Assembly (NCBI GenBank): GCA_000165345.1
Contig: CM000434.1
Span: forward strand, 640,001-704,000
DNA length: 64,000 nucleotides
Direction of reading: 5' to 3'
The translations under genes and the position numbers were made by a program. How positions within the stretch are numbered: the first letter of the stretch is position 1; each line of letters starts with the position of its first letter. The notes under the pieces are model-generated. The model was not told the origin of the DNA. It made no database searches and saw only the letters and a program-made list of their open reading frames with translations. Positions 1,316 through 61,429 of the stretch are shown here, one piece after another.

Positions 1316-1323
1316 ATTTAAAT

Positions 1324-9950: not shown

Positions 9951-10037
9951 GTTGAGCTTTTTCTGTTTCTGAGATAAGATTTGTCCAACAATCCCAGCTA
10001 CAATTAATAATCCCACAACATGACTCTTTATTAATTT

Positions 10038-10047
10038 AGGCGGGAAG
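10038..10047. promoter_or_regulatory. E2F-like GGCGGGAAGG, promoter of Elongin C (minus strand)
   Basis: About 90 bp upstream of ATG 9950. Confidence 0.4.
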
Positions 10048-10355: not shown

Positions 10356-10370
10356 TTTTTGGCGCCAACT
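10356..10370. promoter_or_regulatory. E2F-like TTTTTGGCGCCAACT, promoter of SRP14
   Basis: About 85 bp upstream of ATG 10452. Confidence 0.45.
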
Positions 10371-10451
10371 CAAAAATGACTAAGGAGGAAATTCGAAAAA
10401 TATTATTAGGGCCGAAACTAAGAAAAATATAAATAAGAATTATATGGCAAA

Positions 10452-10834
10452 ATGAAAGAGTTTGATGTGAGTGGGTTCATTAATGAATTGAACTCAATTC
10501 TCAGAGATGAGAAGAATAAGAAACCTGTAAGGATCACAATAAAGAGATGTAAGTTGTTAACATTTTTAGCTTTAAGCGATAAAGTTAACTTATAAATTCA
10601 TTTATCACTTTAGATTATCCTGAAATTAAGGGATGCAAGAAAAAACGCAAAGCAATTGAGGAGGAAAAGACCAAGGATAACACGGATAAACATTATCACT
10701 TGGTTAGGGCAACAGATGGAAAAAAGAGGAAGTCGAGAGTCGTAATAAAGAATGAAAAAGACTCAAATACACTTGTCTCTGAACTTAGCAAAAGTTTAGT
10801 TAAAGCTGATATCCAAAAAAAGGTTAGAAAATAA
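10452..10834 (+). CDS. SRP14: signal recognition particle 14 kDa protein, 2 exons
   Basis: Exon 1 is 10452..10548. The intron 10549..10613 has a GTAAGT donor and TTTAG acceptor. Exon 2 is 10614..10834. The product contains HYHLVRATDGKKRKSRVVIKNE, matching the SRP14 LLRATDGKKKISTVV core, and has a basic C-terminus. It is absent from the ORF track. Confidence 0.7.
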
Positions 10835-10883
10835 ATACAAAGCATTAACCGTTTGGAGATTCTACCAATGCTAGTCAACCTAA

Positions 10884-20723: not shown

Positions 20724-21435
20724 GATTCTTCCTTAATAAATAAACACGTTTTTCGAACGCATACAATTCAAGTTAGGCCACTGATTGTATATTAATTGTT
20801 ATTTTAGGCTACTTGGTTCAACTTTTATCATACACGTTTGAATAAGTTAGTCTTCTACTCTACATATTAAAATTGGCTACTACTTTGCGTTTGGTAATTT
20901 TATGCCATCTTTCCTGCGGGCCAGAAATTAATAGAAAATACCCTCTAATAACTTTGGCAGTAAAATAACAAAAATTAAACTTTTGCCCCTCCTTGCCGGA
21001 TTATTGGTTAGATTTGTTAATTTATATATTTTTTTTTAATAATTTTTTGATTATTAGTTGTAAAACAGATTTTTTGAAGCAAGGATATTATTACTTTTTG
21101 TTAAGTTTTGATTAGAATAGGCCTTCCATAAAATTGGCTGTAAATAAGGCAGTTGGAAGCTCTAAATAGAAATTTAATTTCCAAGACTATAAGATAATGT
21201 GATTTTGAATGACCTTTCTGAATTTCACGTAATAGATTGCTTTTTTTATTAAAAAAACTTCAACAAATAAATTGAACATTCTCTGCCGCCAAATTCAACC
21301 ATTAATTATTGAAAAATATTCAAATTTGAATAAATCTCATATTTTTGCGATTTTTTGCAAACAAAACCACATAATTTTAACATTCTGCTCTGACCTTCAT
21401 CTTTGTCCACAAATTTTAGCATGTTTTAGTGGCAT

Positions 21436-21520
21436 ATACCGGTGTTTTGACATTCAGGCGTTTCCCGCCTAAATTCGTATGTAAATTGGCCGCTAGCATG
21501 AAAAAAGCATGTAAAACAAT
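21436..21520. promoter_or_regulatory. promoter motif cluster: ATACCGGTG, E2F-like GTTTCCCGCC, GCATGTAAAA, TACATGCAAAAAAAAC
   Basis: Immediately upstream of ATG 21521. Confidence 0.45.
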
Positions 21521-36269: not shown

Positions 36270-39200
36270 ATGATAATAGAGAACTTGCTTGCTGATGGCC
36301 TTTGTGAGTCTACTACACCAGATAATCTTTCTGAACTTTCTGAGCAAGTTTTGGAGGCATGGGCTATGGTTAGTATTTCAGCGAAAAACTTTGTAAGTGA
36401 CATTAATAAAGTATTAGATGAATATTTGTATAATTCAAAGGTTTATGAAAAAGTTGAGACTTATCAGGATAATATTTTTAATGGATTCCAATCAGTTCCA
36501 AAATCTCCAGAAAGCAAATTACAGCTTGAAAGATTGGTTTCAACGTTGGAAACTCCGGAAATAACTGAGGCTTTAGAATGTATATATAGAAATGGTCTTT
36601 CAATACAAATCTTAGAAAGCTTTTTAGGTTATTCTCTGGATTACATAATCTCAAAAGAGATCACATTTTTTTGGACTACTTTGCTTTTACTTGGTGAAAC
36701 AGATACAAGTGACTCAAGAATGACAAGTAATGATACAAATTCTGTAGATGGGAGTTTTGTTGAAAATAAAGATTATTCTAAGGATGGTAAGACTCTTATT
36801 CCAATGGATAGAGATATTTTATCTTTTCATAGTTGTTTGATTTTTGGATTGGTAAGATTACTTTGGAATATTGTTTTCATTCTATATGGAGCAACTTCTT
36901 TGGTTAATATTCCAAATATGGAGAGGAGTAGCTTTGTATATGATTGCCTTTCTCAAAAAGATCAAGTATTTCCTAATAATCTTGGTGAATGCCCACTTCG
37001 TAGAGTGATTTATGGTTTTATGACAAAGATTCGTTTATTATTAATAGAAAGTATTCCTTCAGACTTTGACTTAGTATTGGAAAGATATATATTTGGAATA
37101 CTCACTTTTCTTTCTGAGAAGATACTTAATAATGATGAATTTTCGATAAAAAATGATATAAGTCCTATAATAATGAGAGAATATTTGTTAAAAGTTTTAA
37201 TTAATGATTCTTGTGGGAATACAAAAAAAAGAATGGAGATTTGTAAGTCAAGATTAGAGAATCTTCAGCATATATATGAACACAAAGCATCCAGAGTATT
37301 GAGTTTGAATGGTTCATTTCCATCGAATTTGGATTTTGAGACTTTAGAGGTATTATTAAGTTTGATTGGTTGCTCAAATCCTAATGAGAAATGCATAGAT
37401 CAGTTGAATTCAAGTTTTAGTGATAATAGATATATTGGAGAGGAAATTGTAAGACATAGAAATACTGGAGATCAAGATAATTGGGATAACAAGAAGATTC
37501 AGGAAATTCTTAGAGTAATTGCTCAAGGCCCAATTATAGAGGATTTATATAAAAATAATGGAGAGAATTCACTTGAAGAACTTTCAAGAATACATACAAC
37601 ATTATTGGACGAGCTGATTTGGTTAGTTTTTTGCTCTATAGAGCAAGAGAAAGAATATGTGCCTAATAAGAGTAGTCAAATAACTTTGATGACTAGAATT
37701 GGAGATCTTCCAGTTTTAATGAAATTGGTGGGATTTGAACATTTGTGGAAAAAAAGAGTGGTTTACTTGTTAAAAATGCAATCAGTAAATGCTGTGTTAT
37801 TTTTAGAAGGAAGAAAGACAGAGGAAAGTAATTTGAGAATATACTCGAAATATGTTCATGAATTTATGGGCCCAATATTAATGGGTTTATTAGATGGAGG
37901 GTTTGGATATATTAAATCTCAGGATTTTGAACTTGTAGATCAAGAGAATGACAAGAGTGAAAGTTCTGGAATGGCTAATTTTCAAGTAAATAATAACATT
38001 AGTATGATTGGGAAAGAATGTGAGCCAATGAATGGTGATTTGGCATTTCAGATGATATTTGAGGAGTTTTATATGGAATACAATTGGAGTCTTAAAAGAA
38101 GAGTTATAGACCTAATTATGGAATTTCCAAGGAGTAAAAGTTCGATTCTAGACCTTTATATTACAATGAATTACTTTCCAAGCAGCAATATATTAAGAGA
38201 TGTTTGGTTTTCGGAGATTTCAAGAGAGATCTTAAATTATGTGAATGGAAAATTACTTCATTTACATGTTGATACCTCTATAATTGTAGGATTTTATGTC
38301 AAATCGATAATATTTCTGCTCATGTTGGATTTCCCAAATGACAGGATGGATAAAACTTTGATCAGTTTTAGTGATGCTTTGAGGCAGAGAGGAGATACAA
38401 CACTTTGTATAGTTAGTTGGATGCCATTAATGCTTGAGAATTGTTCTCCAGCATTGAGTGATTCTGAGATTATAATGCCAATAAGTTGTTCAGATGAGGG
38501 CGTATATCCTCAGTTTTCAATTTCCAACCCAAACTATAGAAATGAGTGTAGAGGTTTGTTTGAAAAGTCATTTGATCAGATTCAAGAATACTCTCATTGT
38601 TTTCATATTCCCCAGATCAAGTTGGTTTTGAGTTGGATTTCTCGAATTTATGGAAGTAACTTAACTCTTCTATATGATTATATCTATAATTTGGCTTCAA
38701 GAGTGATAGGAAGTGGACAAGAATTGGGTTTTGAATCAAATTCTGTGGATGGTACAGAAAAATGTAGTCTTATTGATGAAAATACTTGGGAAATTGATGA
38801 GAGACGCTTCCAGAAGGATGAATCAGTTTATGAAATGATAAAGCTGACAATTGGTGGAAGGAGTGGTGAAAATTTGCTAAAAGGAGGTTCAGGAAGCTCC
38901 AAATTTGGGAGCAAAGATGAGCAACAATTATTGACCAACTGTAGTATAATTCTACAGGATATAAACAGCTCAATATTAGATAATAAGGAATATAGTAAAT
39001 CTAGAGAAGGATCTTTGCTTAATGCAGAATCCAAGCCAACTGTGACAGGATTTACAATTTCAAGGAATTACTGGTCAGAAGGTGTAATTAATATGGAGAT
39101 AAGAGATGACACCTTTCCTTTAGCTCCAGTATTGGAAGATGAGATTAAAGAGTACAGGCAATTCTTTGAAAGAGAACATCCAGGAAGAACTTTCAATTGT

Positions 39201-40673
39201 TTTTGTGGATATGGAATTGGTTTAGTTGACTTAACAGCAATTGATGGGACAGTGAAAAGCAACATAGCTTTGAATTTCCTACAAATAAGTATTTACGACT
39301 ATATATCAAGCAAACATCCAGAAAATGATTTGGATTATCCAGAAGGTGAATCATCAAAAGACGGATTCCTGGATTCTGATAAACTTTTAAGTTCAAATTC
39401 TATTTTGAATTGGTTTACAATCAGCCCTAAGGCTACAGATAGATCTTCTGATCGTATTAGCAAACCATTAACAGACAAGGAGGAAGTTAAGGTCACATTT
39501 ATGGATATTTTGAATCATTTTAGATTGGATGAACAGACTATTCGTTGGAGTATTGAAAATATGTTATCAAGGGGGATTATTCAAATAGTTACCAAAGAGG
39601 AAGGACTTGAGTGCTTTGATATTCCACAAACCTTTAGCAACATAAAGCTTACAAGGGAGGCAGGCGGAGAAGATGAAAAAGAGCAAGGACGAGAAATGTC
39701 TGTAGCTCAGAAAGATGAAAGTTTCAGCTTAATAAAGACAACAGAAGAAGGATATGGTTCTAATATTAATGATATGACGGTTATGTTGGACTTTAATAAT
39801 ATGCTTAATAATAGGAACAGTAATGCCTCATTGATTGGATTAAATCGTCAAAGCAGTTCTCTTAAAAAAAACTTCACTCTTTCAAGCGTAATGGAGACTC
39901 CAAAGAGGACTCCTCATGAAAATCTAGGAGAAACATCCAGTGAGAGAGCAAGTAGGAGGGAAGAAGAGGGAACAGCCTTCGATAGTCGATATTTGTCAAC
40001 TAGACGTAGTGAAATTGAGAATCAGGATAATATGCAAGAGGGCGAATATGACGAGGGTGAAGAAGAAGACGAGGATTTAAATTTGAACTTCCCAACAGGA
40101 ATAATCACTACAACCATTTCCTTCAAACCTAAAGATTTAGCACAAGATACTAGGCACCAAGGTCCAACTGCAAGCCGCGATGGGCCTTCCTACTCAAAAA
40201 AAGGAGAAAACAATCCTGGGAGTTCTGCTGGAGGAGGAAGCCTTCCTCCAATGATTGCTTTTTCGGAGACATATTTGGAGAAGTACTGTTACTTTACAAC
40301 GCCTTCTGTACTAGACCAGCAAGATAATGGATTAGACTCCTCTTCACCTAGCAATTCCAGATCTAACAAAGACAGAGAACACGCTAACTATGATATTATT
40401 AAAGAATGCGAGCTGCTCATTAGAGCTACACTCCAATTAAACGGTGCAATGGCTCCAGCTGTGCTATTTGCAAGAGTTAGAGCAGCAATTGCAAGTCAGG
40501 GTGAGGACAAGTTCTCCCAAAAAGACTCTGACGATCATCAGGGCTCTAAAGCATCTACAAATACTGACACACAATATACTTTGACATGGCCGCAGCATGT
40601 ACAAGCTATAAATAACATGGTTGACCGAGGAGAAGTATACAACAAAGGTGGAAGATTGTTCTTAGAAAAGTAA
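36270..40673 (+). CDS. large hypothetical protein (1467 aa)
   Basis: Long uninterrupted ORF transcribed divergently from the 31820..36034 gene. The C-terminal region has a winged-helix-like segment (FMDILNHFRLDEQTIRWSIENMLSRGIIQIV). Confidence 0.55.
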   Translation: MIIENLLADGLCESTTPDNLSELSEQVLEAWAMVSISAKNFVSDINKVLDEYLYNSKVYEKVETYQDNIFNGFQSVPKSPESKLQLERLVSTLETPEITEALECIYRNGLSIQILESFLGYSLDYIISKEITFFWTTLLLLGETDTSDSRMTSNDTNSVDGSFVENKDYSKDGKTLIPMDRDILSFHSCLIFGLVRLLWNIVFILYGATSLVNIPNMERSSFVYDCLSQKDQVFPNNLGECPLRRVIYGFMTKIRLLLIESIPSDFDLVLERYIFGILTFLSEKILNNDEFSIKNDISPIIMREYLLKVLINDSCGNTKKRMEICKSRLENLQHIYEHKASRVLSLNGSFPSNLDFETLEVLLSLIGCSNPNEKCIDQLNSSFSDNRYIGEEIVRHRNTGDQDNWDNKKIQEILRVIAQGPIIEDLYKNNGENSLEELSRIHTTLLDELIWLVFCSIEQEKEYVPNKSSQITLMTRIGDLPVLMKLVGFEHLWKKRVVYLLKMQSVNAVLFLEGRKTEESNLRIYSKYVHEFMGPILMGLLDGGFGYIKSQDFELVDQENDKSESSGMANFQVNNNISMIGKECEPMNGDLAFQMIFEEFYMEYNWSLKRRVIDLIMEFPRSKSSILDLYITMNYFPSSNILRDVWFSEISREILNYVNGKLLHLHVDTSIIVGFYVKSIIFLLMLDFPNDRMDKTLISFSDALRQRGDTTLCIVSWMPLMLENCSPALSDSEIIMPISCSDEGVYPQFSISNPNYRNECRGLFEKSFDQIQEYSHCFHIPQIKLVLSWISRIYGSNLTLLYDYIYNLASRVIGSGQELGFESNSVDGTEKCSLIDENTWEIDERRFQKDESVYEMIKLTIGGRSGENLLKGGSGSSKFGSKDEQQLLTNCSIILQDINSSILDNKEYSKSREGSLLNAESKPTVTGFTISRNYWSEGVINMEIRDDTFPLAPVLEDEIKEYRQFFEREHPGRTFNCFCGYGIGLVDLTAIDGTVKSNIALNFLQISIYDYISSKHPENDLDYPEGESSKDGFLDSDKLLSSNSILNWFTISPKATDRSSDRISKPLTDKEEVKVTFMDILNHFRLDEQTIRWSIENMLSRGIIQIVTKEEGLECFDIPQTFSNIKLTREAGGEDEKEQGREMSVAQKDESFSLIKTTEEGYGSNINDMTVMLDFNNMLNNRNSNASLIGLNRQSSSLKKNFTLSSVMETPKRTPHENLGETSSERASRREEEGTAFDSRYLSTRRSEIENQDNMQEGEYDEGEEEDEDLNLNFPTGIITTTISFKPKDLAQDTRHQGPTASRDGPSYSKKGENNPGSSAGGGSLPPMIAFSETYLEKYCYFTTPSVLDQQDNGLDSSSPSNSRSNKDREHANYDIIKECELLIRATLQLNGAMAPAVLFARVRAAIASQGEDKFSQKDSDDHQGSKASTNTDTQYTLTWPQHVQAINNMVDRGEVYNKGGRLFLEK

Positions 40674-40720
40674 TTTTACCACACAAAAAATCCCTCATCC
40701 AATAGAAACCATGTGCTAGC

Positions 40721-40743
40721 CGCCCGCCAAAATTCAGGCGGGC
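40721..40743. promoter_or_regulatory. inverted-repeat E2F-like element GCCCGCCAAAATTCAGGCGGGC
   Basis: Perfect 7-bp arms GCCCGCC / GGCGGGC, positioned 930 bp upstream of ATG 41658 at the start of a purine-rich block. Confidence 0.4.
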
Positions 40744-41657
40744 AAGTGTGAGGGGAGTGGCGCGCATGTGGTGCGGGGTATAAGTAATATGGGGGTAACT
40801 AATAATTAATATATATATACAAATGAATAAATTGAAGTTGATACAAAAAATAAGAGTGAGCTTGAGGCGCGGGACTCGGAGGATATAAAGAATTTATGCG
40901 AGTAGAGCAGTGAATTGGGGAACCAAGACAAGTATGTATGTGTATTTACAGTATATATATAAGTAGATATACGTGCGAGATAATTAGCGGAAAGTAATTA
41001 AATAGGCGTTCAGAATTTACGCGTGAAATTTAGCTTGAGATTTTGAGGTGAGGTACATTGAAAACAAGAGTGGTGTGAGAAGTGTGGAACTTGAGATTTA
41101 TACGTAAGGGTCAATAAGTGGGAATAAGTTAAATAATACAGGTATCAGGAAAGTATTATAATCTAAAGCATTAAATAAGTGTGTCAAAATTAAAATGATT
41201 ATATAGAGGTAACTGGACTCCTCACAAAATTACATATAAATTTTTTGTAATTTTTCAGTATCGAAAGAATACAATTCGTTTATATATGTATATTACGAAT
41301 AAAAATAAATGAACAATCAATAAACAAAAGATCAAACAGGAGTATTATAGACTCAAGAATTGGACATACAACTAGTTTACTCTGAAGGATCAATGTAATT
41401 TTAGAGTGATTAGAGGAATTTGGAATATTTAGAGAACATTTTGAAATACGAAAAGAATCGTGTGGTAAATAGAAGATTGTTCAGAAAGGTAGTAAAATCT
41501 AGTAAGTCAAGAAGGTCTTCGTCACTGCTGAACAGTCACTGGGGATTTTGCCCTGGAGCTGTTTCTCACAGTGAACGTTTCTGGACCTATAGAGTAAATA
41601 CATATAGGAAAGAAGAAAATTTTTGTGTGAAATGATCATTAGGATATTCGAATACCA

Positions 41658-44474
41658 ATGAGTTTCGAAGAAAGAATTTCAAGTGAAAATGGAGGAATCG
41701 AGATTTTGGGAGGTGCAAATCTTGTATGTGGGGTAACAGATTCTAGCCGTGGCTTAGTTTCTGTGTCAGACTTGAGTCCAAATCTCTCTGGAATAAAAGT
41801 TCAGTTTGGAGATCCCTCCCCTATTTGTGGAATTACTGGGCAGGATGCTTTGGGTGGCTTCCAATCTATCAACCAAAAGACCAAAAGCTCTGAGATAGGA
41901 ACAACTTTAAATGAATCTTTTCTGGTTTCAATTTCGGAGCTCAGATACATTGTTTTGATATGTATCCGATGGAGACTTCAAAATAGCTCCGAGCTGTCTT
42001 CAAACGTAAGTACAATCTTGGGAATTGGAACTGGAAGTTCAATCGCTCCAGTAGACTCCCCTTCAACATGTGGTGAGGAGTCTATAACTCCTTCCAAGGA
42101 GTATCTAGTATCTAATATCTTTCTCTACAGATCCTGTATTAGCGATTCTCATAGAGTGGAGCTAGAATTTCAGGTTGTTAGAGATATCTTGAGGCTTATA
42201 GACCCAACAGTTGAGTCTGGAGGCCGACATTTCTCTGGAAGGCTTGTCAATAGTGCCAACAGAAACATTATCAAGGAACTTGCTGGAGGGTTGGATTCCC
42301 AGGAGGCTAATGAAATGAGAAATGCTGAGAGTGTCTTGGGTTCTCAGTTCCTTCTGAGCAAGCTTCCATTTCCCAATTACGGGACTTTTCTTGGGAAGGA
42401 GACTGCTGAGTACACAATAGGTGATATAATCAACACTACAGAACATCCAACTGGACTAAACCTGGCCAATGTTGCCAGTACTCCCTCTATATTGGGAATT
42501 CTTCTCAAGTACTTTGATGTTTCCTGGCCGAGTCATATTTTTGAAAGTCTTCTTAAGAGTGATGTGGTTGGAGGCGGACTTCAGCAACAAGAAGACAATA
42601 TTAGTTCAACTGTCAAGGATTCTGGAGATGTTTCTCTTTCCTTGGGGTCTTTTACGCACGTTTTGGGCTTATGTAAGCCTTGTGTTTTTGTCAATAAGAC
42701 CAATAAGAAGTGTAGAAACGGTGTACATTGTTGTTTCTGCCATTTTCAGCATAAAGAAAGGAAGAGAGGCAAGAGGTATAAGTCTTCTGCTAACTGCTCC
42801 TCGACATCTAATTCCTGTAATAACTCTGGGGCTGGAACAGGAGTATGTTTGACTTCCTCTTCAGGGCAACCGAGCCATTCAGGGGCAAACAATTCTGGAG
42901 GTATTGCAAGTAATTATGAAGAACTTGGAGGAGGTATCGGGAATACCTCAGGATTTGGAGTCACATCAAATGGGGCCGGTATACTAAATGTTGAGGGCTT
43001 CTCCAAACAGGATATATCAGCTTTAGCTGAAGATTGTCTGCGGGTTTCCTCAATATCTCCAGCATCTATAAGAGGGCCCCACAACATATTTGGATCTAAT
43101 CGTTCTGAACTGTCTCAAGGGGCAGTGGGGCTTAGTTCTATTCAGCCTGCAGGTATGACAGCGGCTTCGGGATCACAATGTCTCCCAGATGTACTCTTCT
43201 CTCACCATGGATCCCAACAGCTCCAGAGGTACCCTTTGAAAGCTAATCAAGGCGCTAACAACCCTCTAACATCTTTCCAATCATCGGCCAGGAGCAATTC
43301 TGTCTTTGGAAAATCGTCTTGTCCTACAGGAAGTGAACAGCAACAGCAAATGCCAGTTAGATATCTTGTACCTCCTCCACCTCCACCTCCTTCCAAGACA
43401 TCAGGTGCTCTTCAAATATTTCAGAATGAAAAGGATGTCAATTTCCGAGATAACTCAAACCCTGTTGCAACATCGACTTCGGCAGGGTTTAACCAGCTCG
43501 GGACAAATTATCAGAAGGGTAGCTCTGACAAACATTCAATGAGGATTCCTGGATTAGTGTTGGATTCATGCCCATTCCAAAGCTCCCAAGGAGCTTCTCA
43601 GTCCTTTAATGACTCATTTTTTGGAGATTTTATTGGTTATAACAAATTGATCAATGAGGCTTCGGAGATGAATAACTGGATATCAGCCAATAACCCGGAG
43701 AACTCGTCTAATGCTATAAATCAAAACTCAAAGGTATATGGCTGCTTTCAGTGGCTCGATCAGCCAGAAATTGGTGAATCCATAGTCGATGCTTGGGGAG
43801 TAGGAAATACCTTTGACTCATTTATAAAGGGAAATGGTGCCAGTACCAGCCCTCAAAACTTGAATCAATGTCTTTATGATTCTCATTCATATTCTAAAGC
43901 TGCTCAAGATTGGACCTTTGCATCATCTATCATTAAGAATTCTTCAATAAACGCTTCCAATAGTGCTTCAGAGTCATCTTTTACTGTTAATAATCATAGC
44001 AACCTAGTAAATCCAAATTCTGCGTCTTCTCTACAGATCTCCACCAGCCAGCCCTCTTCCCAGAAGCTAAGAGAGTCTATTATCGGTTCACCATTAAACC
44101 TGGAGGCCAGCAGCATTAATTTCCATGACCAGGCTCAAACTCAATCTCAAGCCCAGGTTCAGAGTAGTCAGGCTTTACCTGAACTTGCTGAGGGAGTCCC
44201 AAATAGTCATAATGACTACTTTTTGAGCTCGCCTAGTGTATTTAATTCCAATGCTACAACCTCTTCACTCCCATCATCTCTTTCAGATAACAATAATATC
44301 AATAACGGCTCTTTCATTATGCCAAGTGGAAGTGTCGTTCCTCCATTTTTAAGAGGTAACCAGGGAGCTGGAGTTTCTTCTGAATACTCTGACTGTTCTC
44401 CTTTATCCTTTTTAACAGGAGGAGGAGCAACTAACTTTGGGATGGATTTCTGTTTCCTTAACTCATGGAAGTAG
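41658..44474 (+). CDS. low-complexity protein with a single CCCH-type zinc finger
   Basis: 938 aa, rich in S/N/G/Q, with a PPPPPPPS run. CKPCVFVNKTNKKCRNGVHCCFCH fits C-x9-C-x5-C-x3-H. Confidence 0.5.
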   Translation: MSFEERISSENGGIEILGGANLVCGVTDSSRGLVSVSDLSPNLSGIKVQFGDPSPICGITGQDALGGFQSINQKTKSSEIGTTLNESFLVSISELRYIVLICIRWRLQNSSELSSNVSTILGIGTGSSIAPVDSPSTCGEESITPSKEYLVSNIFLYRSCISDSHRVELEFQVVRDILRLIDPTVESGGRHFSGRLVNSANRNIIKELAGGLDSQEANEMRNAESVLGSQFLLSKLPFPNYGTFLGKETAEYTIGDIINTTEHPTGLNLANVASTPSILGILLKYFDVSWPSHIFESLLKSDVVGGGLQQQEDNISSTVKDSGDVSLSLGSFTHVLGLCKPCVFVNKTNKKCRNGVHCCFCHFQHKERKRGKRYKSSANCSSTSNSCNNSGAGTGVCLTSSSGQPSHSGANNSGGIASNYEELGGGIGNTSGFGVTSNGAGILNVEGFSKQDISALAEDCLRVSSISPASIRGPHNIFGSNRSELSQGAVGLSSIQPAGMTAASGSQCLPDVLFSHHGSQQLQRYPLKANQGANNPLTSFQSSARSNSVFGKSSCPTGSEQQQQMPVRYLVPPPPPPPSKTSGALQIFQNEKDVNFRDNSNPVATSTSAGFNQLGTNYQKGSSDKHSMRIPGLVLDSCPFQSSQGASQSFNDSFFGDFIGYNKLINEASEMNNWISANNPENSSNAINQNSKVYGCFQWLDQPEIGESIVDAWGVGNTFDSFIKGNGASTSPQNLNQCLYDSHSYSKAAQDWTFASSIIKNSSINASNSASESSFTVNNHSNLVNPNSASSLQISTSQPSSQKLRESIIGSPLNLEASSINFHDQAQTQSQAQVQSSQALPELAEGVPNSHNDYFLSSPSVFNSNATTSSLPSSLSDNNNINNGSFIMPSGSVVPPFLRGNQGAGVSSEYSDCSPLSFLTGGGATNFGMDFCFLNSWK

Positions 44475-44847
44475 GAGAGGGGTGCACCGATAATGCGACT
44501 AAGGGTTTGACACAAACATGTCGTGGATACCTAACTCCAGAATGTGCATCTTATCTGCCTAGTTCTTTAAAATAAGATGATGGGATTTCTAAAAGAGAGA
44601 TAATAAAAGATCAAAGATGTAATGTTATCAGGAAAGTGGAAAAGAAGAGACTCCATGAGAGAAATAGCGGAGGAAAAGTAGAGTAAGACATGCCAGAGAA
44701 GTTGTAGGTAACGTAAATAGTGTTTTGTCTGAAATTTCGGTTAGAATGTTGACTAATGAGACAAATTGTTTTCTCTGCATAGATTAATGTGGATATCAGT
44801 ATAACGATATTCTAGTCATGAAATAATAATTGTTAATAATCCGAGTT

Positions 44848-45588: not shown

Positions 45589-46143
45589 TTTTTTTTAATT
45601 TTAATTGAATCTTAGTCAATTCGAGTTGTGTGTTTGAATTTACAAAATCTAATAGAGGTTGTTCGCTATAATAAGGATAAACGACTGTATGCCTTTGTTC
45701 CTTCGCAAATTTTCTTTCTGTTTACAATTTAAAGGCAATAATTAAATAAAAATCCAACTTTCTTTGTCAGATCTTTCTTTCTTTTTGTTTTACCCTGAAT
45801 CCTGGCATTTCTTAATTTTGTTTAATACCGGTATGTGAGCGTCTTGTCTACTGACTTTTAAAAATATTTATTAATGGCAGGAAAGAAATGGAATTTTGTT
45901 ATTGGGCGGGAATTGTTGGAAGTGGTGGGAAAATTGGTGTGTTAGGTATGAATTACGTGTTTGAGCGGCAATTTCATGCAAGTTAGGGTTGGATGGGGGG
46001 ACTAGAGGGAAGAGGGTGCGAATATGCAGTGGTTGTAGCAATACAGTGCATGCATGTGTTTACAATGAACATGTAGGGAAGAAGTGAAAAGAGAGGAGAG
46101 AAAAGGAGAGGAAAACGAGAGTAAAGAGATGAGGGGAGTGAGA

Positions 46144-46188
<45 letters not shown>

Positions 46189-46258
46189 GAAAAATCATTA
46201 TTAAGGATAAAAAGCTAATATAGCAGTTATTTTCAAGAGTTCAAGTATTGATGAACAA

Positions 46259-47389
46259 TTACTTGGTGACTTTGAATGACTGAACAAGCTGTAAAAGCTC
46301 TTTGGCCCTAGGGTCAGTATTAAAATGGTCACGAATTGGTTGTAGCATAAGGTTCAAAGCGTCAGAAAGACCTTTTTTCAAATCACCAGGGTGAAGATCG
46401 CCACTAAGATAAGCCTTATGGAAATCTTCTTTATTGGTAAAGGTGATATCACCACCATACTCTTCTTTTCTAGAAACATGGAAATGACCGAATTTGGGGA
46501 ATACTAGAGTATTAATATATTCAATGCATGGATTTCCTTCAATAATGCCTGGAGGACAGAAAGCCTTTTTAATTTTTTTAACAACAGCTTCAGGAGTATC
46601 TTCAACAAATATTGCAGAAGAAGTGTCAGATTTTGACATTTTTTCTTGTCCTTCAAGTAACCCAGGAAGCATCTTATGGGAAAGGATTACAGGTTTATGT
46701 TTGATTCCAGCTGCATCACAGTATTCTCTAGCAAGCATGTTAACTTTTCTTTGATCCATACCTAACTGGCAAATATCTGCCTTGAGTTGGAATATATCAG
46801 CACATTGCATGCATGGATAAAATACTGAAGCACACGGTTGTTCATCATTTTCTTGTCTTCCCATAATTTGGCAACATCTTTTAATTCTAGTAATATTAAA
46901 CTTTCTAGAAATATCAAAAACTCTTAACCAATACTCATTAGAATCTTCCCCATTAATAAAATCAGATGCCCAAACAAATCTTACATTTGTCATATCCATT
47001 CCTGCAGCCTTCCATATGTGAACGAAATATTCACCAACAATCTTAATTTTTTCAAGATCACCACCCATCTTATTATTGAGCAGAGCAAACCAATCTGCTA
47101 CGTAGAATACAAAAACGCATCCGCATTCAGTTAACTTATTTACATTAATAGTCTTTAATATACATTGAGCAATATGCATTCTTCCTGAAGGTTCAAATCC
47201 ATCATAACAAATTGGATGTTCTTTTCTCTTTAATAATTCCAACAATTCTGCTTCTTGAATACATTCTTCACCAACTGATAAACATAACTTATGTCTTTCC
47301 TCCAAAGTTAACTTTGATCTTTTCAATGGCTCTTCACTTCCTTTCAAAATGTATTTGGGGATAGTTTCAGTACAACTATTAGATGACAT
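46259..47389 (-). CDS. tyrosyl-tRNA synthetase (class I, archaeal/eukaryotic type)
   Basis: 376 aa. CYDGFEPSGRMHIAQ corresponds to the HIGH region, a KMSKS motif is present, and AFCPPGIIEGNP resembles the TyrRS AYCP..EGNP segment. Confidence 0.85.
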   Translation of the reverse strand: MSSNSCTETIPKYILKGSEEPLKRSKLTLEERHKLCLSVGEECIQEAELLELLKRKEHPICYDGFEPSGRMHIAQCILKTINVNKLTECGCVFVFYVADWFALLNNKMGGDLEKIKIVGEYFVHIWKAAGMDMTNVRFVWASDFINGEDSNEYWLRVFDISRKFNITRIKRCCQIMGRQENDEQPCASVFYPCMQCADIFQLKADICQLGMDQRKVNMLAREYCDAAGIKHKPVILSHKMLPGLLEGQEKMSKSDTSSAIFVEDTPEAVVKKIKKAFCPPGIIEGNPCIEYINTLVFPKFGHFHVSRKEEYGGDITFTNKEDFHKAYLSGDLHPGDLKKGLSDALNLMLQPIRDHFNTDPRAKELLQLVQSFKVTK

Positions 47390-50528: not shown

Positions 50529-51465
50529 ATGGTAAATAATTTGATTTGGAGGATCAGCAGGCCAATCTCCTCGAGAGTTTTCTCTGCCATACCATATTTT
50601 AGTAAGAGAACGCTTTTTCTGTCTTTTAAACGCTTCTTTCACTCAGATCCAGAACTATGGACCAAAGATGTTCATCCGAAGATGTAAGTTAATCTATTCT
50701 AGACTTAAGAAATTATAATTAAAGTTCAACTTTTTAATTCACCATTAATTGGATCCTTAGAGAACTTTCGTTTATATTGAGAGATGGTGAGAAGAAAGTT
50801 TTTAATGTAAGTTTAGAGATCTATATCTTTTATAAATACTTTAACCATTTAACTTTGCTATAACTCAGGCTCCAAAGAATATTTCTTTACTAGAAGCTGC
50901 TCAGCATGAAGAACTAGACATAGAAGGAGCATGCGAAGCATCTTTAGCATGTAGCACATGTCATGTCATTTTGGACAAAGTAAGTTTATTGAATAGATTA
51001 ACTGGGGACGAGGAAAAAAAAAGGAAACGGAACAAACTATCGGTCTAATTTCGATGTGAAGTTCCAAATAAATAACATAAAGATCTTCCTAATATAAAGA
51101 CCCAAAAATTCACAATTCATTTGCAAAAGGGGGATAACTATAAAAGCAAACATCTATTCTTCCTCAGATGCGCACAAACTAGAACTTGTCCATGAGACTT
51201 GCATCTTAACTTTGTGCTCTCATACCCTTAAAGGCCTCGCACTTATCCTTATTTTTCACTCTTTAATCCATAGGAAATTTATGATGAACTAGAACCGCCA
51301 TCAGAGAGAGAAGAGGATATGCTGGATATGGCACCGCAAGTTTGCGAAACTTCAAGATTAGCATGTCAAATCAAAGTCGACGAAAGACTGACAAAGGGTA
51401 ACATTCATCTTCCTAACATGACACGAAATTTCTATGTCGATGGATTTAAACCATCACCACACTAA
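50529..51465 (+). CDS. adrenodoxin-type [2Fe-2S] ferredoxin (mitochondrial/mitosomal Yah1-like), 5 exons
   Basis: The exons are 50529..50601, 50648..50684, 50761..50806, 50869..50979 and 51274..51465. The introns are 46, 76, 62 and 294 nt long. Their donors are GTAAGA, GTAAGT, GTAAGT and GTAAGT, and every acceptor is YAG. The spliced product has an Arg/Ser-rich presequence (MVNNLIWRISRPISSRVFSAIPYF). The mature part, FILRDGEKKVFNAPKNISLLEAAQHEELDIEGACEASLACSTCHVILDKEIYDELEPPSEREEDMLDMAPQVCETSRLACQ, aligns along its length with adrenodoxin (INRDGE...GACEGTLACSTCH...MLDLA...SRLGCQ). Confidence 0.7.
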
Positions 51466-51484: not shown

Positions 51485-52008
51485 GAGCCACTTTGTATGC
51501 CGATACTTTTCCGTCTCTAATATATTTGGGAAGTTTAAGGTCGTGAAGAAAGAAAGGTTAGGAATAAAGATTATTTAATTACATAAGATCCCGCAAGGTA
51601 GACACGTATCCAAAGTAAATTTTAAGTCAGATTTGACAGGCAAGTATATTGTAAATAATGGTATTTGCGGATAACAATGACTTGTAAATCCACTAATACA
51701 GGCCCAGTTAATTTGGCGCTAAATGGTTAATTAGATTTAGTGAATTAATCAGAATGATTACGTCTAAAATAAGTGGAGCGTTATACGTAAAATGATTTAA
51801 GCACTATAAAGTAATTGAAATTAAAGTAAGAATAAGTAACGATGCACCAACGGCGACAGGAAAATATGTCCAGTAGAAATGAAGGTAATAAATGAATAGT
51901 ATTTTAATAGTATGATAATAAGGTCTAATGAGGTAATAGAGAGAAAAGGCTCCAGTCAAGAATAACATTGTAAATTTAAAGAAAAAATTCAAAAGGCTGT
52001 TTTTAGTC

Positions 52009-52032
52009 AAAAAAAAAAAAAAATAAAAAAAA
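52009..52032. promoter_or_regulatory. oligo(A) tract (A14TA8) in the presumed PABP 5' leader
   Basis: Direct read of the sequence; 95 bp upstream of the PABP ATG. Confidence 0.45.
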
Positions 52033-52125
52033 GACCATTGGTTGCAATTATAGTGACAAAGGGTCGCCCTATAGTTCTAGCCAAACAAATACATCAGATT
52101 TTTGTGAAGAAGGCCTATTGGAAAG

Positions 52126-54366
52126 ATGACAAGTAATAATAACGTAGTACCGGTTAGTGCCTCCCTTTATGTGGGTGATTTGGATGCAGATGTGACTGAG
52201 ACAATGTTATATGAAATATTTAATAGTGTTGCAGTTGTATCATCAGTACGTATTTGTAGAGACGCTCTTACAAGAAGAAGCTTGGGTTATGCTTATGTCA
52301 ATTACAATAGTGTAGCGGATGCTGAGAGAGCTCTAGATACTCTTAATTTCACATGCATCCGTGGCCGTCCATGCAGAATTATGTGGTGCTTACGCGACCC
52401 AGCATCCAGAAGAAACAACGATGGAAATGTATTTGTAAAGAATTTGGATAAGTCGATTGATAATAAGACATTATTCGATACTTTTAGTCTATTTGGAAAT
52501 ATTATGTCATGTAAAATCGCTACCGATGTTGAGGGTAAGTCTTTGGGATATGGTTTTATCCATTTCGAACATGCAGACAGTGCTAAAGAAGCTATTTCTA
52601 GGCTAAATGGGGCTGTATTGGGAGATCGCCCAATTTATGTCGGAAAGTTCCAGAAGAAGGCTGAACGCTTTTCTGAAAAAGATAAGACATTCACTAATGT
52701 CTATGTTAAACATATCCCTAAGAGTTGGACTGAAGATCTTCTATACAAGATATTTGGAGTATATGGTAAAATTAGCTCATTGGTCCTGCAATCCGACTCT
52801 AAAGGTAGACCTTTTGGTTTTGTGAACTTTGAAAACCCCGATTCCGCTAAGGCTGCAGTTGCTGCCTTACACAATGCTTTAGTTACTCCAGTAGGGGTTG
52901 AGTTGGACTCTACAGCAGAGACTCCAGTTGATAACGAGGCTGGAGCTGATTCTGAGACATCATCCAAGCAAGAATCTGGAGAAGCTTCTAATAAAAAACA
53001 AACTGCATCTGGCGAAGCATCAAAGGATTCTTCAGGAACATCAAACGAGGAATCTGCACAGAATGAGGATGGATCAGCTGACAAGAATGTTTCAGCTGAT
53101 GTACAACCAAATAGACTATATGTTTCTAGAGCACAAAAAAAGAATGAACGTCAGGTGGTCTTGAAGTCTCAACACGAAGCTGTAAAGGAGAGCCACCAAA
53201 GATACCAAGGTGTAAATCTTTATGTAAAGAATTTGGCAGATTCAATCAATGAGGAGGACCTCCGTTCTATGTTTGAACCATTTGGAACAGTATCTTCCGT
53301 AAGCATTAAGACTGATGAATCAGGTGTCTCAAGAGGATTTGGGTTTGTTTCATTCCTCTCCCCTGATGAAGCTACAAAGGCTATTACTGAGATGCACCTT
53401 AAGCTTGTGCGCGGAAAGCCACTGTATGTAGGCCTTCACGAACGTAAAGAACAAAGAGCACTACGTCTTCAGCAGCGTATTAGAGGGGGTGCAGTCCCTC
53501 CAGTTTTAAGACCCGGAGCAATTCCCCCAGGCCCTCCAGGAGTACATGGAGCTCCCATGCAATTTGGTGTACCACCACAAATGTACTTTATTCCTGGAAA
53601 TCCAAATGTGGCAGCAACTGCTATGCCACATGGAAGAGCGATGGTTACAGGAGGTTTCCCTAATCAAAATGCAATGAATAATCCATGGAGGCCAAATCCA
53701 ACAAGAATGCCATACACTGCAGGAGGTGTGCCTCCTCAAATGACAGGCGGTCCTCAAATGACAGCCTATAATGGCAACGTTATCCAACAAAATGGAGTAT
53801 CTCCAAACGGAGCTGCTAATGCTACCGGGTCTGTCCAAAATGGAGTCACCGGTAATGCAGTTACAGGAGTTCAAGGTGCTCAAAATAACAGAACTGGAGG
53901 AAATAACCAGAGAATTCATAATAGACATGTTCAAGGTAATGGGCAAGGAGGAAGGCCGGGCTCCCATGGTCATCAAGTTCAGCAAATGCAAAAGCAAGGA
54001 TTCAAATTTCCACAAAACGTTAAGGGATCTGAAATGCAGCGCGTGGATATGATGCAAAATAGACAAATGGATTCATCAAACGGCGCACTTGTTCAGAATC
54101 CATTAATCCCTCAACCAGATGTTCCTCTAACTGCTGCTACCTTGGCAGCTGCATCCCCTAGCATGCAGAAACAATTACTTGGAGAGAGACTTTTCCCAAT
54201 TATTGCCCAATTCCAACCAGAATTGGCAGGAAAGATCACCGGGATGATGCTTGAAATGGATAACAATGAATTATTAGAACTTTTGAGTTCTGATATTGAA
54301 ATCAAAAACAAGGTAGATGAGGCCATGGTCGTACTTGAACGTGCTCAGCAACAAATTAGCACGTAA
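52126..54366 (+). CDS. PABP: poly(A)-binding protein (four RRMs plus PABC/MLLE domain)
   Basis: 746 aa. The first RRM starts LYVGDLDADVTETMLYEIF and three more RRMs follow. The C-terminal LGERLFPIIAQFQPELAGKITGMMLEMDNNELLELL is a canonical PABC domain. Confidence 0.9.
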   Translation: MTSNNNVVPVSASLYVGDLDADVTETMLYEIFNSVAVVSSVRICRDALTRRSLGYAYVNYNSVADAERALDTLNFTCIRGRPCRIMWCLRDPASRRNNDGNVFVKNLDKSIDNKTLFDTFSLFGNIMSCKIATDVEGKSLGYGFIHFEHADSAKEAISRLNGAVLGDRPIYVGKFQKKAERFSEKDKTFTNVYVKHIPKSWTEDLLYKIFGVYGKISSLVLQSDSKGRPFGFVNFENPDSAKAAVAALHNALVTPVGVELDSTAETPVDNEAGADSETSSKQESGEASNKKQTASGEASKDSSGTSNEESAQNEDGSADKNVSADVQPNRLYVSRAQKKNERQVVLKSQHEAVKESHQRYQGVNLYVKNLADSINEEDLRSMFEPFGTVSSVSIKTDESGVSRGFGFVSFLSPDEATKAITEMHLKLVRGKPLYVGLHERKEQRALRLQQRIRGGAVPPVLRPGAIPPGPPGVHGAPMQFGVPPQMYFIPGNPNVAATAMPHGRAMVTGGFPNQNAMNNPWRPNPTRMPYTAGGVPPQMTGGPQMTAYNGNVIQQNGVSPNGAANATGSVQNGVTGNAVTGVQGAQNNRTGGNNQRIHNRHVQGNGQGGRPGSHGHQVQQMQKQGFKFPQNVKGSEMQRVDMMQNRQMDSSNGALVQNPLIPQPDVPLTAATLAAASPSMQKQLLGERLFPIIAQFQPELAGKITGMMLEMDNNELLELLSSDIEIKNKVDEAMVVLERAQQQIST

Positions 54367-61221: not shown

Positions 61222-61274
61222 TCTTTATTTTTCAGTGACTACGAAAAAAAAATCCCTTTCCATTCACAAACACT

Positions 61275-61334
61275 ATACCGGCATTCCAATAGCTACATGC
61301 ATTATTCTATAAAAAATTGGCGGGCTTTTGAGGA
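61275..61334. promoter_or_regulatory. promoter cluster: ATACCGGCAT, TACATGCATT, TTGGCGGGC
   Basis: 100 to 150 bp upstream of ATG 61430. Confidence 0.4.
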
Positions 61335-61429
61335 AAAGTCCTGGCGAGATATTTATTATTAGGAAAAAGTAATTGGGGGATGTAAAAGAGTTTAGTAAAA
61401 ACGAGTAAAATTACAAGGAAAGGTTGATA

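What the first reader, a model, noticed from the sequence alone, without database searches (positions are those of the whole stretch)
40680..41657. About 950-bp C-depleted purine-rich block bounded by an inverted E2F repeat, upstream of a CCCH zinc-finger gene
Between the stop of the 36270 gene and ATG 41658, the plus strand is almost devoid of C, for example GTGAGGGGAGTGG..., GAGGTGAGGTACATTGAAAACAAGAGTGGTGTGAGAAGTGTGG. It opens with a perfect inverted repeat GCCCGCCAAAATTCAGGCGGGC at 40722..40743. The 3' flank of the same gene (44475..44830) is similarly purine-rich. Strand-asymmetric composition this strong implies transcription of the whole interval, either as an unusually long 5' leader, possibly with an internal intron (GTAAGG at about 41107), or as an independent non-coding RNA.
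Basis: seen in the sequence. Interest (0 to 1): 0.55.

Follow-up and report, generated by a model that had tools for sequence, protein, structure and literature searches.

The report
Conserved long leader before Cryptosporidium zinc-finger gene
The 984-bp gap before a Cryptosporidium parvum zinc-finger gene is most likely an E2F-type promoter followed by an unusually long, strongly conserved, start-codon-poor 5' leader, a familiar kind of translational-control region that a 2025 review says has not been described in this parasite.

Summary
The window is Cryptosporidium parvum chromosome 6. The finding is the 984-bp spacer between an APC2-like gene and a CCCH zinc-finger gene, probably cgd6_2950.

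- The GCCCGCC-N8-GGCGGGC inverted repeat is real and unique in the 64 kb.
- Extreme C depletion (7.9% C, skew +0.54) covers only 40744-41200, not about 950 bp, and two other places in the window are at least as skewed.

New evidence:
- The spacer is more conserved across four species (75% identity to C. ubiquitum) than neighbouring spacers (59-65%), synonymous sites (55-68%) or the downstream coding sequence (72%). An invariant core lies at about 41063-41112.
- ATG is the most depleted of all 64 trinucleotides on the plus strand only. This holds in three species whose spacers no longer align.
- The depletion starts near 40943, after a TATA-like run.
- Tiny uORFs are conserved, one of them ending on the main ATG.
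- The core is not a stable fold, has no Rfam match and holds no conserved ORF.

Best reading: promoter (about 40720-40965) plus a leader of about 670-700 nt that controls translation. A separate non-coding RNA or a DNA-only enhancer is not excluded. No RNA data could be reached.

The parts
36270..40673 (+). Upstream gene (1467 aa, weak ANAPC2-like TPR match). Its stop codon is at 40671-40673.
   Evidence: ORF list. Pfam PF25773, E 9.9e-6, just below the curated cut-off. Synteny is kept in seven Cryptosporidium species.
40722..40743 (.). Inverted pair of E2F-like sites: GCCCGCC, 8 nt, GGCGGGC. The left arm read on the minus strand is TTTTGGCGGGC. It lies 50 nt after the upstream stop codon.
   Evidence: Sequence. 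Unique in the 64 kb and absent from 1000 shuffles. The GGCGGG core matches published C. parvum motif 4, TTTGGCGGGAAV. 23 of 26 E2F-like cores in the window are intergenic. As RNA it would form a -16.6 kcal/mol hairpin, z -3.3. Arms are identical in C. meleagridis and degenerate in the chipmunk genotype and C. ubiquitum.
40748..40765 (+). G-box-like GTGAGGGGAG (40748-40757) followed by an E2F-type core GGCGCGC (40759-40765).
   Evidence: Sequence. Matches published motif 6 KKGRGGGGRR and core [C/G]GCGC[G/C]. Core listed.
40826..40831 (+). First AATAAA after the upstream stop. Candidate polyadenylation signal of the upstream gene, inside an AT-rich, indel-rich, poorly conserved stretch (40763-40843).
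   Evidence: Motif scan. The Cryptosporidium signal is A(A/G)TAAA per bioRxiv 2025.01.17.633476. Conservation profile. The assignment is an inference.
40866..40875 (+). Second E2F-like site GGCGCGGGAC, at the start of the well-conserved zone. Candidate proximal promoter element for the zinc-finger gene.
   Evidence: GCGCG and GACT are invariant in four species. Conservation rises from about 40844.
40952..40963 (+). TATA-like run TATATATATAAG, immediately downstream of the last normally spaced upstream ATGs (40934, 40938). The transcription start is inferred about 25-40 nt further on.
   Evidence: Sequence. Upstream ATG positions in four species all change density here. The start site itself is inferred, not shown.
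40943..41657 (+). Inferred 5' leader of the zinc-finger mRNA (about 670-715 nt). It is purine-rich and ATG-depleted.
   Evidence: ATG 5 observed against 15.2 expected (P<0.0005); the minus strand is not depleted. This depletion is unique among 17 spacers of the window. It recurs in six orthologues. ATG is the most depleted of 64 trinucleotides.
41063..41112 (+). Fully invariant core (AACAAGAGTGGTGTGAGAAGTGTGGAACTTGAGATTTATACGTAAGGGTC...) inside a near-invariant stretch at about 41054-41165. CTTGAGATTT occurs twice (41035, 41091). No ATG occurs between 40943 and 41194.
   Evidence: Alignment A1 and sliding conservation. Not stably folded: z +1.29 on the plus strand, +0.11 on the minus strand. 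No Rfam match.
41104..41258 (+). Candidate leader intron: GTAAGG at 41104 to the pyrimidine tract plus CAG ending at 41258 (155 nt). A shorter alternative is GTAACT at 41209 to 41258 (50 nt). Unverified.
   Evidence: Both ends are conserved in four species. Real introns of the nearby ferredoxin gene start GTAAGT, end YAG and are about 62-294 nt long. Against it: the interior is 63-90% invariant in 30-column windows.
41393..41398 (+). Conserved minimal uORF ATGTAA (start-stop) at -265. Other upstream ATGs lie at 41195 (-463), 41286 (-372) and 41309 (-349).
   Evidence: uORF table across four species.
41513..41588 (+). Conserved hairpin 70-145 nt upstream of the ATG. This is the one C-containing block of the leader.
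   Evidence: -30.2 kcal/mol, z -2.0. Consensus fold has invariant stems, a variable loop and two compensatory pairs in the basal stem, from only four sequences.
41632..41661 (+). Nine-codon uORF (MIIRIFEYQ*) whose TGA stop overlaps the main start codon (ATGA).
   Evidence: Start, length, frame and overlap are identical in four species. Peptides are MIIRIFEYQ, MIIRIFEYQ, MIIRLLEYQ and MTIRLFEYQ.
41658..44474 (+). Downstream gene: a 938-aa protein with one C-X9-C-X5-C-X3-H finger. Probably cgd6_2950, also CPATCC_002834.
   Evidence: Exact match to C. parvum chromosome 6 records. The orthologue is named cmbei_6002950, and the naming rule is given. The N-terminus MSFEERIS is conserved.
44475..44847 (+). 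Purine-rich 3' flank, probably the 3' UTR of the same mRNA. It converges with the minus-strand Bax1-I gene.
   Evidence: Composition. Conservation is ordinary, 62% to C. ubiquitum.

Best explanation
The interval is two things in series.

1. Promoter, about 40720-40965. It is built from E2F-like sites (an inverted pair at 40722-40743 and a second site at 40866), a G-box-like motif and a TATA-like run. It probably overlaps the 3' end of the upstream mRNA.

2. Leader, from about 40965-41000 to the ATG at 41658. This is a plus-strand 5' leader of about 670-700 nt for the CCCH zinc-finger mRNA.

The purine-rich, C-poor make-up is the sense-strand bias seen upstream of most genes in this window, here stretched over an unusual length. 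The leader is held almost free of AUGs. It keeps three to five tiny uORFs, including a start-stop and one that ends on the main AUG, plus a hairpin at -145 to -70. It also has an invariant, unstructured core of about 50 nt inside a near-invariant stretch of about 110 nt.

The likely function is control of translation or mRNA fate of the zinc-finger protein, through scanning and reinitiation and through a factor that reads the core as primary sequence.

Shown: composition, motifs, conservation, strand-specific ATG depletion and conserved uORFs. Inferred: transcription, the start site, and any effect on translation.
For: Organism and synteny:
- The window is C. parvum chromosome 6, and gene order is kept in seven species.

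Promoter context:
- 23 of 26 E2F-like cores lie in the 25% of the window that is intergenic. They usually sit 50-340 nt from an ATG, but here 792-935 nt away.
- E2F motifs mark open-chromatin peaks at C. parvum 5' ends.

Composition:
- Sense-strand G>C upstream of ATGs is general: 21 of 28 genes, mean skew +0.14. Downstream of genes the mean is 0.

Conservation:
- The spacer has 75% identity to C. ubiquitum and 84% to the chipmunk genotype.
- Four neighbouring spacers have 59-65% and 71-77%. Third codon positions have 55-68% and 64-76%. The downstream CDS has 72% and 79%.
- An invariant core is present.

ATG depletion:
- Plus-strand ATG is 12 observed against 24 expected (P<0.001). The minus strand shows 10 against 14, not significant.
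- This is the only one of 17 spacers with such depletion.
- It holds in all six orthologues, including the unalignable C. xiaoi (P=0.006), C. ryanae (0.047) and C. andersoni (0.02).
- ATG ranks first of 64 trinucleotides for depletion in C. parvum (z -3.5) and in the pooled distant species (z -3.8).
- The boundary is sharp, near 40943.

uORFs and hairpin:
- The uORFs are conserved, as is the hairpin.
Against: - No transcript data could be reached, so the strand, start site and continuity with the coding sequence are inferred.
- C. parvum leaders appear short. This is inferred from E2F-to-ATG distances in this window and a 504-bp mean spacer.
- Three conserved AATAAA copies at 41298-41324 and a conserved T-run at 41243-41255 could end a separate upstream RNA.
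- An invariant stretch this long is unusual for a leader.
- The alignable species are only four and closely related, so their agreement is not independent evidence.
- ATG depletion in the distant species is moderate.
Confidence: 0.55

Rival explanations
1. An independent plus-strand non-coding RNA of about 250-350 nt runs from about 40990 to the T-run at 41243-41255 or the AATAAA cluster at 41298-41324. It is driven by the E2F and TATA-like elements. A separate, shorter leader for the zinc-finger mRNA follows it.
For: - The conservation peak (40844-41235) is separated from the rest by a dip at 41231-41290.
- A T-run and three AATAAA copies are conserved in four species.
- C. parvum has many annotated lncRNAs and intergenic intermediate-size RNAs. 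Fifteen of the latter are conserved only in the five close relatives of C. parvum.
Against: - ATG depletion covers both the putative RNA (0 observed against 5.3 expected in 40966-41195) and the remainder (4 against 9.5 in 41196-41657). A non-translated RNA does not predict this.
- A[AG]TAAA is not enriched: 6 observed against 3.5 expected.
- There is no stable fold and no Rfam match.
- Core sequences are absent from the held part of the lncRNA FASTA of PMC7840661, although that file was truncated when stored.
- No E2F-type promoter element lies downstream of 40900 for a second start site.
Confidence: 0.2
2. A DNA-level cis-regulatory module, an extended promoter or enhancer for the zinc-finger gene or for bidirectional or antisense transcription. 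It is conserved because it is packed with transcription-factor sites and is not transcribed as a long leader.
For: - E2F-like, G-box-like and repeated CTTGAGATTT and AAGTGTG words are present.
- More than half of C. parvum regulatory open-chromatin peaks are annotated as bidirectional.
- The core shows conservation of primary sequence without RNA structure.
Against: - Strand-specific ATG depletion, and conserved uORF frames with an ATGA overlap at the start codon, are not expected of DNA-only elements.
- About 700 bp of constraint is long for a promoter in a genome whose mean spacer is 504 bp.
Confidence: 0.12
3. The two genes form one dicistronic transcript and the spacer is its internal untranslated region, as described for about 10% of C. 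parvum genes.
For: - The genes are on the same strand.
- E2F motifs were found in 160 of 201 internal UTRs of polycistrons.
Against: - ATG density is normal in the first 269 bp after the upstream stop, with 7 observed against 9.2 expected.
- An AATAAA at 40826 and promoter motifs lie between the genes.
- No list of polycistrons could be consulted.
Confidence: 0.06
4. Nothing functional: a compositional quirk from mutation bias or purine loading, with chance motifs.
For: Equally skewed blocks exist elsewhere in the window. One of them (45589-46258) is poorly conserved.
Against: - Conservation exceeds synonymous sites and neighbouring spacers.
- The core is invariant.
- The inverted repeat never arises in shuffles.
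- ATG depletion recurs in unalignable orthologues.
Confidence: 0.03

Closest known systems
E2F/DP-type promoter elements of Cryptosporidium parvum (motifs DTTGSCGCCH and TTTGGCGGGAAV; Oberstaller et al. 2013, PMC3734150; ATAC-seq peaks in Xiao et al. 2025, bioRxiv 2025.01.17.633476)
   Same: - GGCGGG and GGCGCG cores with T/A flanks.
- Intergenic location.
- A G-box-like motif alongside.
- Partly conserved in related species.
   Different: - Here two GGCGGG sites form an inverted pair with an 8-nt spacer, the only such pair in 64 kb.
- The sites lie 792-935 nt from the ATG instead of the 50-340 nt typical in this window.
- Binding by E2F/DP is not shown.
Long uORF-bearing 5' leaders that gate translation of regulators (yeast GCN4, mammalian ATF4, Toxoplasma BFD1). 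Named from general knowledge, not tested here.
   Same: - A long leader before a putative regulatory protein.
- Few, very short, conserved uORFs.
- The last uORF overlaps the main AUG.
- Overall AUG avoidance.
   Different: - No evidence of stress or stage regulation.
- An invariant, unstructured, C-poor core is not a described feature of those leaders.
- A 2025 review says uORFs have not been described in Cryptosporidium (PMC12246861).
Annotated C. parvum lncRNAs and intermediate-size ncRNAs (Li et al. 2021, PMC7840661; Li et al. 2022, PMC9465071; 766 lncRNAs in the CpBGF annotation, PMC12179316)
   Same: - Intergenic, non-coding, and conserved only among the close relatives of C. parvum, like 15 of the reported is-ncRNAs.
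   Different: - Most C. parvum lncRNAs are antisense.
- The 2022 set was selected largely for predicted conserved structure or high small-RNA expression, whereas this core has no stable fold.
- No match was found in the held part of the lncRNA sequence file.
Purine loading of the mRNA-synonymous strand (Szybalski's transcription-direction rule). Named from general knowledge.
   Same: - The sense strand is rich in G and A and poor in C, both in coding sequences and upstream of ATGs in this window.
   Different: - The rule is statistical. A counter-example, 45589-46258, lies 4 kb away, so composition alone does not prove transcription.

Membership tests
E2F/DP binding site (C. parvum E2F-like motifs 3 and 4) | Core GGCGGG or [C/G]GCGC[G/C] | tested here: met
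   GGCGGG cores at 40723 (as CCCGCC) and 40737. GGCGCG cores at 40759 and 40866. Motif definitions from PMC3734150.
E2F/DP binding site (C. parvum E2F-like motifs 3 and 4) | T-rich and A-rich flanks (TTTGGCGGGAAV) | tested here: inconclusive
   The left arm on the minus strand reads TTTTGGCGGGC, with a good 5' flank but no AA 3' flank. The right arm reads TTCAGGCGGGCAA, a partial match.
E2F/DP binding site (C. parvum E2F-like motifs 3 and 4) | Lies in upstream or open-chromatin regions and is bound by E2F/DP | not testable with these tools
   The intergenic location is met.
uORF-regulated long 5' leader | The region is part of the mature mRNA of the downstream ORF | not testable with these tools
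   No RNA-seq, Iso-seq or CAGE data could be reached. The CpBGF UTR annotation exists but could not be read.
uORF-regulated long 5' leader | Selection on upstream AUGs: sense-strand depletion with a few retained, conserved uORFs | tested here: met
   ATG 12 observed against 24 expected on the plus strand only. Unique among 17 spacers. Present in six orthologues. Rank 1 of 64 trinucleotides. uORFs at -26, -265 and -349 are kept in four species.
uORF-regulated long 5' leader | uORFs alter translation of the main ORF | not testable with these tools
   Needs ribosome profiling or reporter assays.
Structured non-coding RNA families (Rfam: snRNA, snoRNA, RNase P/MRP, SRP, telomerase RNA and others) | Match to a covariance model, or a fold more stable than shuffled sequence | tested here: not met
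   No hits at gathering score in the whole window. Only chance-level hits (E 3.5-9.4) in 40600-41720. Core fold z is +1.29 and +0.11. No telomere-template permutation (CCTAAA-type) is conserved, by inspection.
Spliceosomal intron in the leader | Conserved GT...YAG boundaries with a pyrimidine tract | tested here: met
   GTAAGG at 41104 and (T)nCAG or TAG ending at 41258 are present in four species. Local introns use GTAAGT...YAG.
Spliceosomal intron in the leader | Spliced reads, and an interior freer to vary than the flanks | tested here: not met
   The interior 41112-41235 is 63-90% invariant in 30-column windows, as conserved as its flanks. Spliced reads are not testable.
Protein-coding exon or small protein gene | A conserved open reading frame | tested here: not met
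   The longest plus-strand ATG ORF is 21 codons. A 71-codon TTG ORF (41420-41635) is broken by 2-nt and 4-nt indels in the orthologues.
Spliced-leader RNA gene | Short exon plus GT donor plus Sm site, multicopy, with the leader found on many mRNAs | tested here: not met
   Single copy in the window. The T-run lacks a conserved Sm-site G. Published searches found no spliced leader or trans-splicing machinery in C. parvum.

The most novel reading that the evidence does not exclude
The invariant, AUG-free, unstructured, C-poor core (41063-41112, near-invariant over about 41054-41165) is a sequence-specific binding platform. It could sit in the leader or in a separate conserved lncRNA. Through it, translation or stability of the CCCH zinc-finger mRNA would be switched during the life cycle, possibly by the zinc-finger protein itself. 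That would be the first uORF and leader-based translational switch described in Cryptosporidium, comparable in logic to the BFD1/BFD2 loop of Toxoplasma.
Probability: 0.15. Interest if true: 0.6.

Novelty: new member of a known kind. Interest (0 to 1): 0.33.

Why it matters
Gene regulation in Cryptosporidium is poorly understood. A 2025 review states that uORFs have not been described in the genus (PMC12246861).

A leader of about 700 nt that is more conserved than the coding sequence it precedes would be a concrete candidate for post-transcriptional control of a putative RNA-binding regulator. It carries conserved mini-uORFs and an invariant core, and it could be tested with existing Iso-seq data and CRISPR reporter tools.

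It also gives a practical lesson for sequence-only scans. In this genome, strand-specific ATG depletion together with cross-species conservation marked this one spacer out of 17. GC skew alone did not: an equally skewed block 4 kb away lies between two genes on the opposite strand.

Long uORF-bearing leaders and E2F promoters are otherwise ordinary eukaryotic features.

Tried and rejected
- Rfam: nothing at gathering threshold over the whole window, and only chance-level hits in a permissive scan of 40600-41720.
- Structured RNA: the core fold is no better than shuffles on either strand.
- Deep homology: an nhmmer profile of the four-species alignment found no hit in C. xiaoi, C. ryanae or C. 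andersoni loci. A seven-species MAFFT alignment was uninformative beyond the C. parvum clade.
- Dispersed repeat: BLAST of the spacer against the rest of the window gave only chance matches.
- Coding exon: no conserved ORF.
- Telomerase RNA, C/D or H/ACA snoRNA, and spliced-leader RNA were checked by inspection and against the literature. No conserved template, boxes or Sm site were found, and a published search for spliced leaders was negative.
- Polyadenylation-signal enrichment: not significant.
- Literature look-ups of cgd6_2950, cpbgf_6002950 and CPATCC_002834 in full texts and supplements returned nothing, or the supplements were not held.
- Pfam on the zinc-finger region gave no hit.
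- Transcript evidence through assembled public runs was not obtainable. The look-up reads only the longest contigs, and the ones it returned span many genes and look genomic.
Full report
**Where we are**

The 938-aa protein encoded at 41658-44474 is identical to a protein on Cryptosporidium parvum chromosome 6 records (BX526834.1, CP029785.1, CM109966.1). It is named CPATCC_002834 in the IOWA-ATCC genome.

Its C. meleagridis orthologue is cmbei_6002950. Under the legacy-compatible naming rule, that points to cgd6_2950. This assignment is an inference.

The window has 33% G+C and about 75% of it is long intronless ORFs. The finding is the spacer 40674-41657 (984 bp) between two plus-strand genes:
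- a 1467-aa protein with a weak ANAPC2-like match;
- the 938-aa protein, which has no Pfam hit but carries a genus-invariant C-X9-C-X5-C-X3-H finger and a UniRef C3H1 label.

**Checking the observation**

The inverted repeat is real. GCCCGCC, 8 nt, GGCGGGC sits at 40722-40743. It is the only G+C-rich inverted repeat with 7-bp arms in 64 kb, and it arose in none of 1000 dinucleotide shuffles.

The C depletion is real but narrower than claimed:

| Interval | C | G | Rank in window |
|---|---|---|---|
| 40744-41200 | 7.9% | 26.7% | top 0.7% for skew (+0.54) |
| 41200-41657 | 12.0% | 18.8% | near the window mean (15.5% C, SD 4%) |
| whole 984 bp | 11.6% | 22.3% | top 5% for skew, top 12% for low C |

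Two other regions are at least as skewed: 45726-46383 and 61280-61953. The 3' flank 44475-44847 is purine-rich as stated. GTAAGG is at 41104-41109.

**Composition in context**

Across 28 genes of the window, the 300 nt upstream of the ATG has positive sense-strand GC skew in 21 cases (mean +0.14). The 300 nt downstream of genes averages zero. Most coding sequences also have G>C on the sense strand. A C-poor, purine-rich sense strand before a start codon is therefore the norm here. What is unusual is the length.

Composition alone is not proof of transcription. The most skewed spacer of the window (45589-46258, +0.455) lies between two minus-strand genes and is poorly conserved, at 59% identity to C. 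ubiquitum.

**Promoter motifs**

- E2F-like cores (GGCGGG or [C/G]GCGC[G/C]) occur 26 times in the window, 23 of them in the 25% that is intergenic. They usually lie 50-340 nt from an ATG.
- These are the most over-represented upstream motifs in C. parvum, together with G-box-like and GAGA-like motifs (PMC3734150).
- E2F motifs dominate open-chromatin peaks at transcript 5' ends (bioRxiv 2025.01.17.633476).
- This spacer has the inverted pair, a perfect G-box-like GTGAGGGGAG (40748-40757), a GGCGCGC core (40759-40765), and a second conserved site GGCGCGGGAC (40866).
- All of these lie 792-935 nt from the ATG. None lies closer.

**Comparative evidence**

I fetched the orthologous loci from C. 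meleagridis, the chipmunk genotype, C. ubiquitum, C. xiaoi, C. ryanae and C. andersoni. Gene order is identical in all, and the spacer is always long (727-1054 bp). Its skew is +0.30 to +0.38 in the six intestinal species and 0.04 in C. andersoni.

Identity of C. parvum sequence to two relatives:

| Sequence class | To C. ubiquitum | To chipmunk genotype |
|---|---|---|
| This spacer | 75% | 84% |
| Four neighbouring spacers | 59-65% | 71-77% |
| Third codon positions of six genes | 55-68% | 64-76% |
| Downstream coding sequence (all positions) | 72% | 79% |

Among the four alignable species:
- Conservation rises at about 40844.
- It is total from about 41063 to 41112 and stays near-total to about 41165.
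- It dips at 41231-41290.
- It peaks again at 41514-41565.

The three distant species do not align, and an nhmmer profile finds nothing in them.

**What the conserved sequence is not**

- Not a known RNA family.
- Not a stable fold. For 41030-41260, z is +1.29 on the plus strand and +0.11 on the minus strand.
- Not a repeat.
- Not coding. No conserved ORF exists, and indels break the frames.

**The strand-specific signal**

On the plus strand, ATG occurs 12 times against 24 expected from dinucleotide shuffles (P<0.001). ATG on the minus strand is not depleted, at 10 against 14.

- None of the other 16 spacers over 300 bp in the window shows this. The next best has P=0.015.
- The same plus-strand-only depletion appears in all six orthologous spacers, including the three that no longer align: C. 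xiaoi P=0.006, C. ryanae P=0.047, C. andersoni P=0.02.
- ATG is the single most depleted of all 64 trinucleotides in C. parvum (z -3.5) and in the pooled distant species (z -3.8). GTG is the most enriched in both.
- The depletion has a sharp 5' edge. In 40674-40942, ATG is 7 observed against 9.2 expected. In 40943-41657 it is 5 against 15.2 (P<0.0005).
- In all four alignable species the dense upstream ATGs stop at the same alignment position. That position is just before a TATA-like run, TATATATATAAG, at 40952-40963.

This is the expected footprint of selection against upstream AUGs in an mRNA leader that starts around 40965-41000.

**What remains in the leader**

The retained upstream ATGs open only tiny ORFs, and most are conserved:
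- a nine-codon uORF at -26 (MIIRIFEYQ*, with I/L/F/T variants) whose TGA overlaps the main start as ATGA, in four of four species;
- an ATGTAA start-stop at -265, in four of four species;
- a short uORF at -349, in four of four species;
- short uORFs at -372 and -463, in three of four species.

A hairpin at 41513-41588 folds at -30.2 kcal/mol (z -2.0). It has invariant stems, a variable loop and two compensatory basal pairs. With only four sequences this is suggestive, not proven.

**Model**

The upstream mRNA probably ends near the first AATAAA at 40826, so it would contain the E2F palindrome. The E2F and G-box cluster, the second E2F-like site and the TATA-like run form the promoter.

A leader of about 670-700 nt follows. 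Its invariant, AUG-free, unstructured core is probably read as primary sequence by a protein or RNA. Its mini-uORFs and hairpin would throttle or gate initiation at the main AUG.

Transcription, the start site and the regulatory effect are all inferences.

**Rivals**

- *Separate non-coding RNA of 250-350 nt.* It would end at the conserved T-run (41243-41255) or the AATAAA triplet (41298-41324). It is not excluded. However, A[AG]TAAA is not enriched (6 against 3.5). ATG depletion spans both halves. No second promoter motif lies downstream.
- *DNA-only enhancer.* It does not explain the strand-specific ATG depletion or the conserved uORF geometry.
- *Dicistronic internal UTR.* Normal ATG density right after the upstream stop argues against it.
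- *Leader intron (41104-41258, or 41209-41258).* It has conserved ends resembling local introns but an interior too conserved for a plain intron. It stays undecided.

**Known or new**

E2F promoters, purine-loaded sense strands and uORF-bearing leaders are all known kinds. For Cryptosporidium specifically, a 2025 review says uORFs have not yet been described.

The CpBGF annotation already holds Iso-seq-based UTRs and 766 lncRNAs. The answer may therefore already sit in CryptoDB, which I could not reach.

I rate this a new member of a known kind. It is of moderate interest to Cryptosporidium specialists and low general surprise.

Noticed in passing
window 45880-46200 (spacer 45589-46258): This is the most G-skewed block of the window (C about 6%, G about 33%), yet it lies between two minus-strand genes (Bax1-I and a class I tRNA synthetase). 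It holds an E2F-like site TTGGGCGGGAATT (45905), GCATGCATG (about 46048, AP2_1-like), G-rich runs and a GA microsatellite of about 19 repeats. It is poorly conserved (59% to C. ubiquitum) and not ATG-depleted. It may be the Bax1-I promoter read from the other strand, or the start of a plus-strand antisense RNA over the synthetase gene.
   Followed up: partly
window 9040-10883: A 1.8-kb spacer between two minus-strand genes holds three E2F-like sites (9371, 10039, 10361) far from any ATG. It may hide an unannotated gene or non-coding RNA.
   Followed up: no
window 52000-52035: A long A-tract (A15 T A8) lies about 90-120 nt upstream of the ATG of the poly(A)-binding protein gene (52126-54366; RRM and MLLE domains). 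It resembles the A-rich autoregulatory leader element known for PABP mRNAs in other eukaryotes. The nearest E2F-like sites are 647-660 nt upstream (51466, 51479).
   Followed up: no
window 50529-51465: The ferredoxin gene has three introns, all starting GTAAGT and ending YAG, about 76, 62 and 294 nt long. I used them as the local splice-site reference. An E2F-like site (50491) lies about 40 nt upstream of the gene.
   Followed up: partly
window 61280-61953: This is the third strongly G-skewed region (skew at or above +0.54). It spans the short spacer 61222-61423, which has an E2F-like site at 61319, and the 5' part of the ORF at 61424-62734. The ORF finder could start that ORF only at TTG, so the gene model there may need an upstream exon or a different start.
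   Followed up: no
window 116-2409: Two plus-strand ORFs (116-1315 and 1324-2409) are separated by only 8 nt. They may be one gene split by a frameshift or short intron, or a tightly packed (possibly dicistronic) pair.
   Followed up: no
window 20724-21520: This is the only other spacer with a hint of plus-strand ATG depletion (7 observed against 13.2 expected, P=0.015). It lies upstream of the plus-strand ORF at 21521, which the ORF finder starts at GTG. The true start or leader may extend upstream.
   Followed up: no
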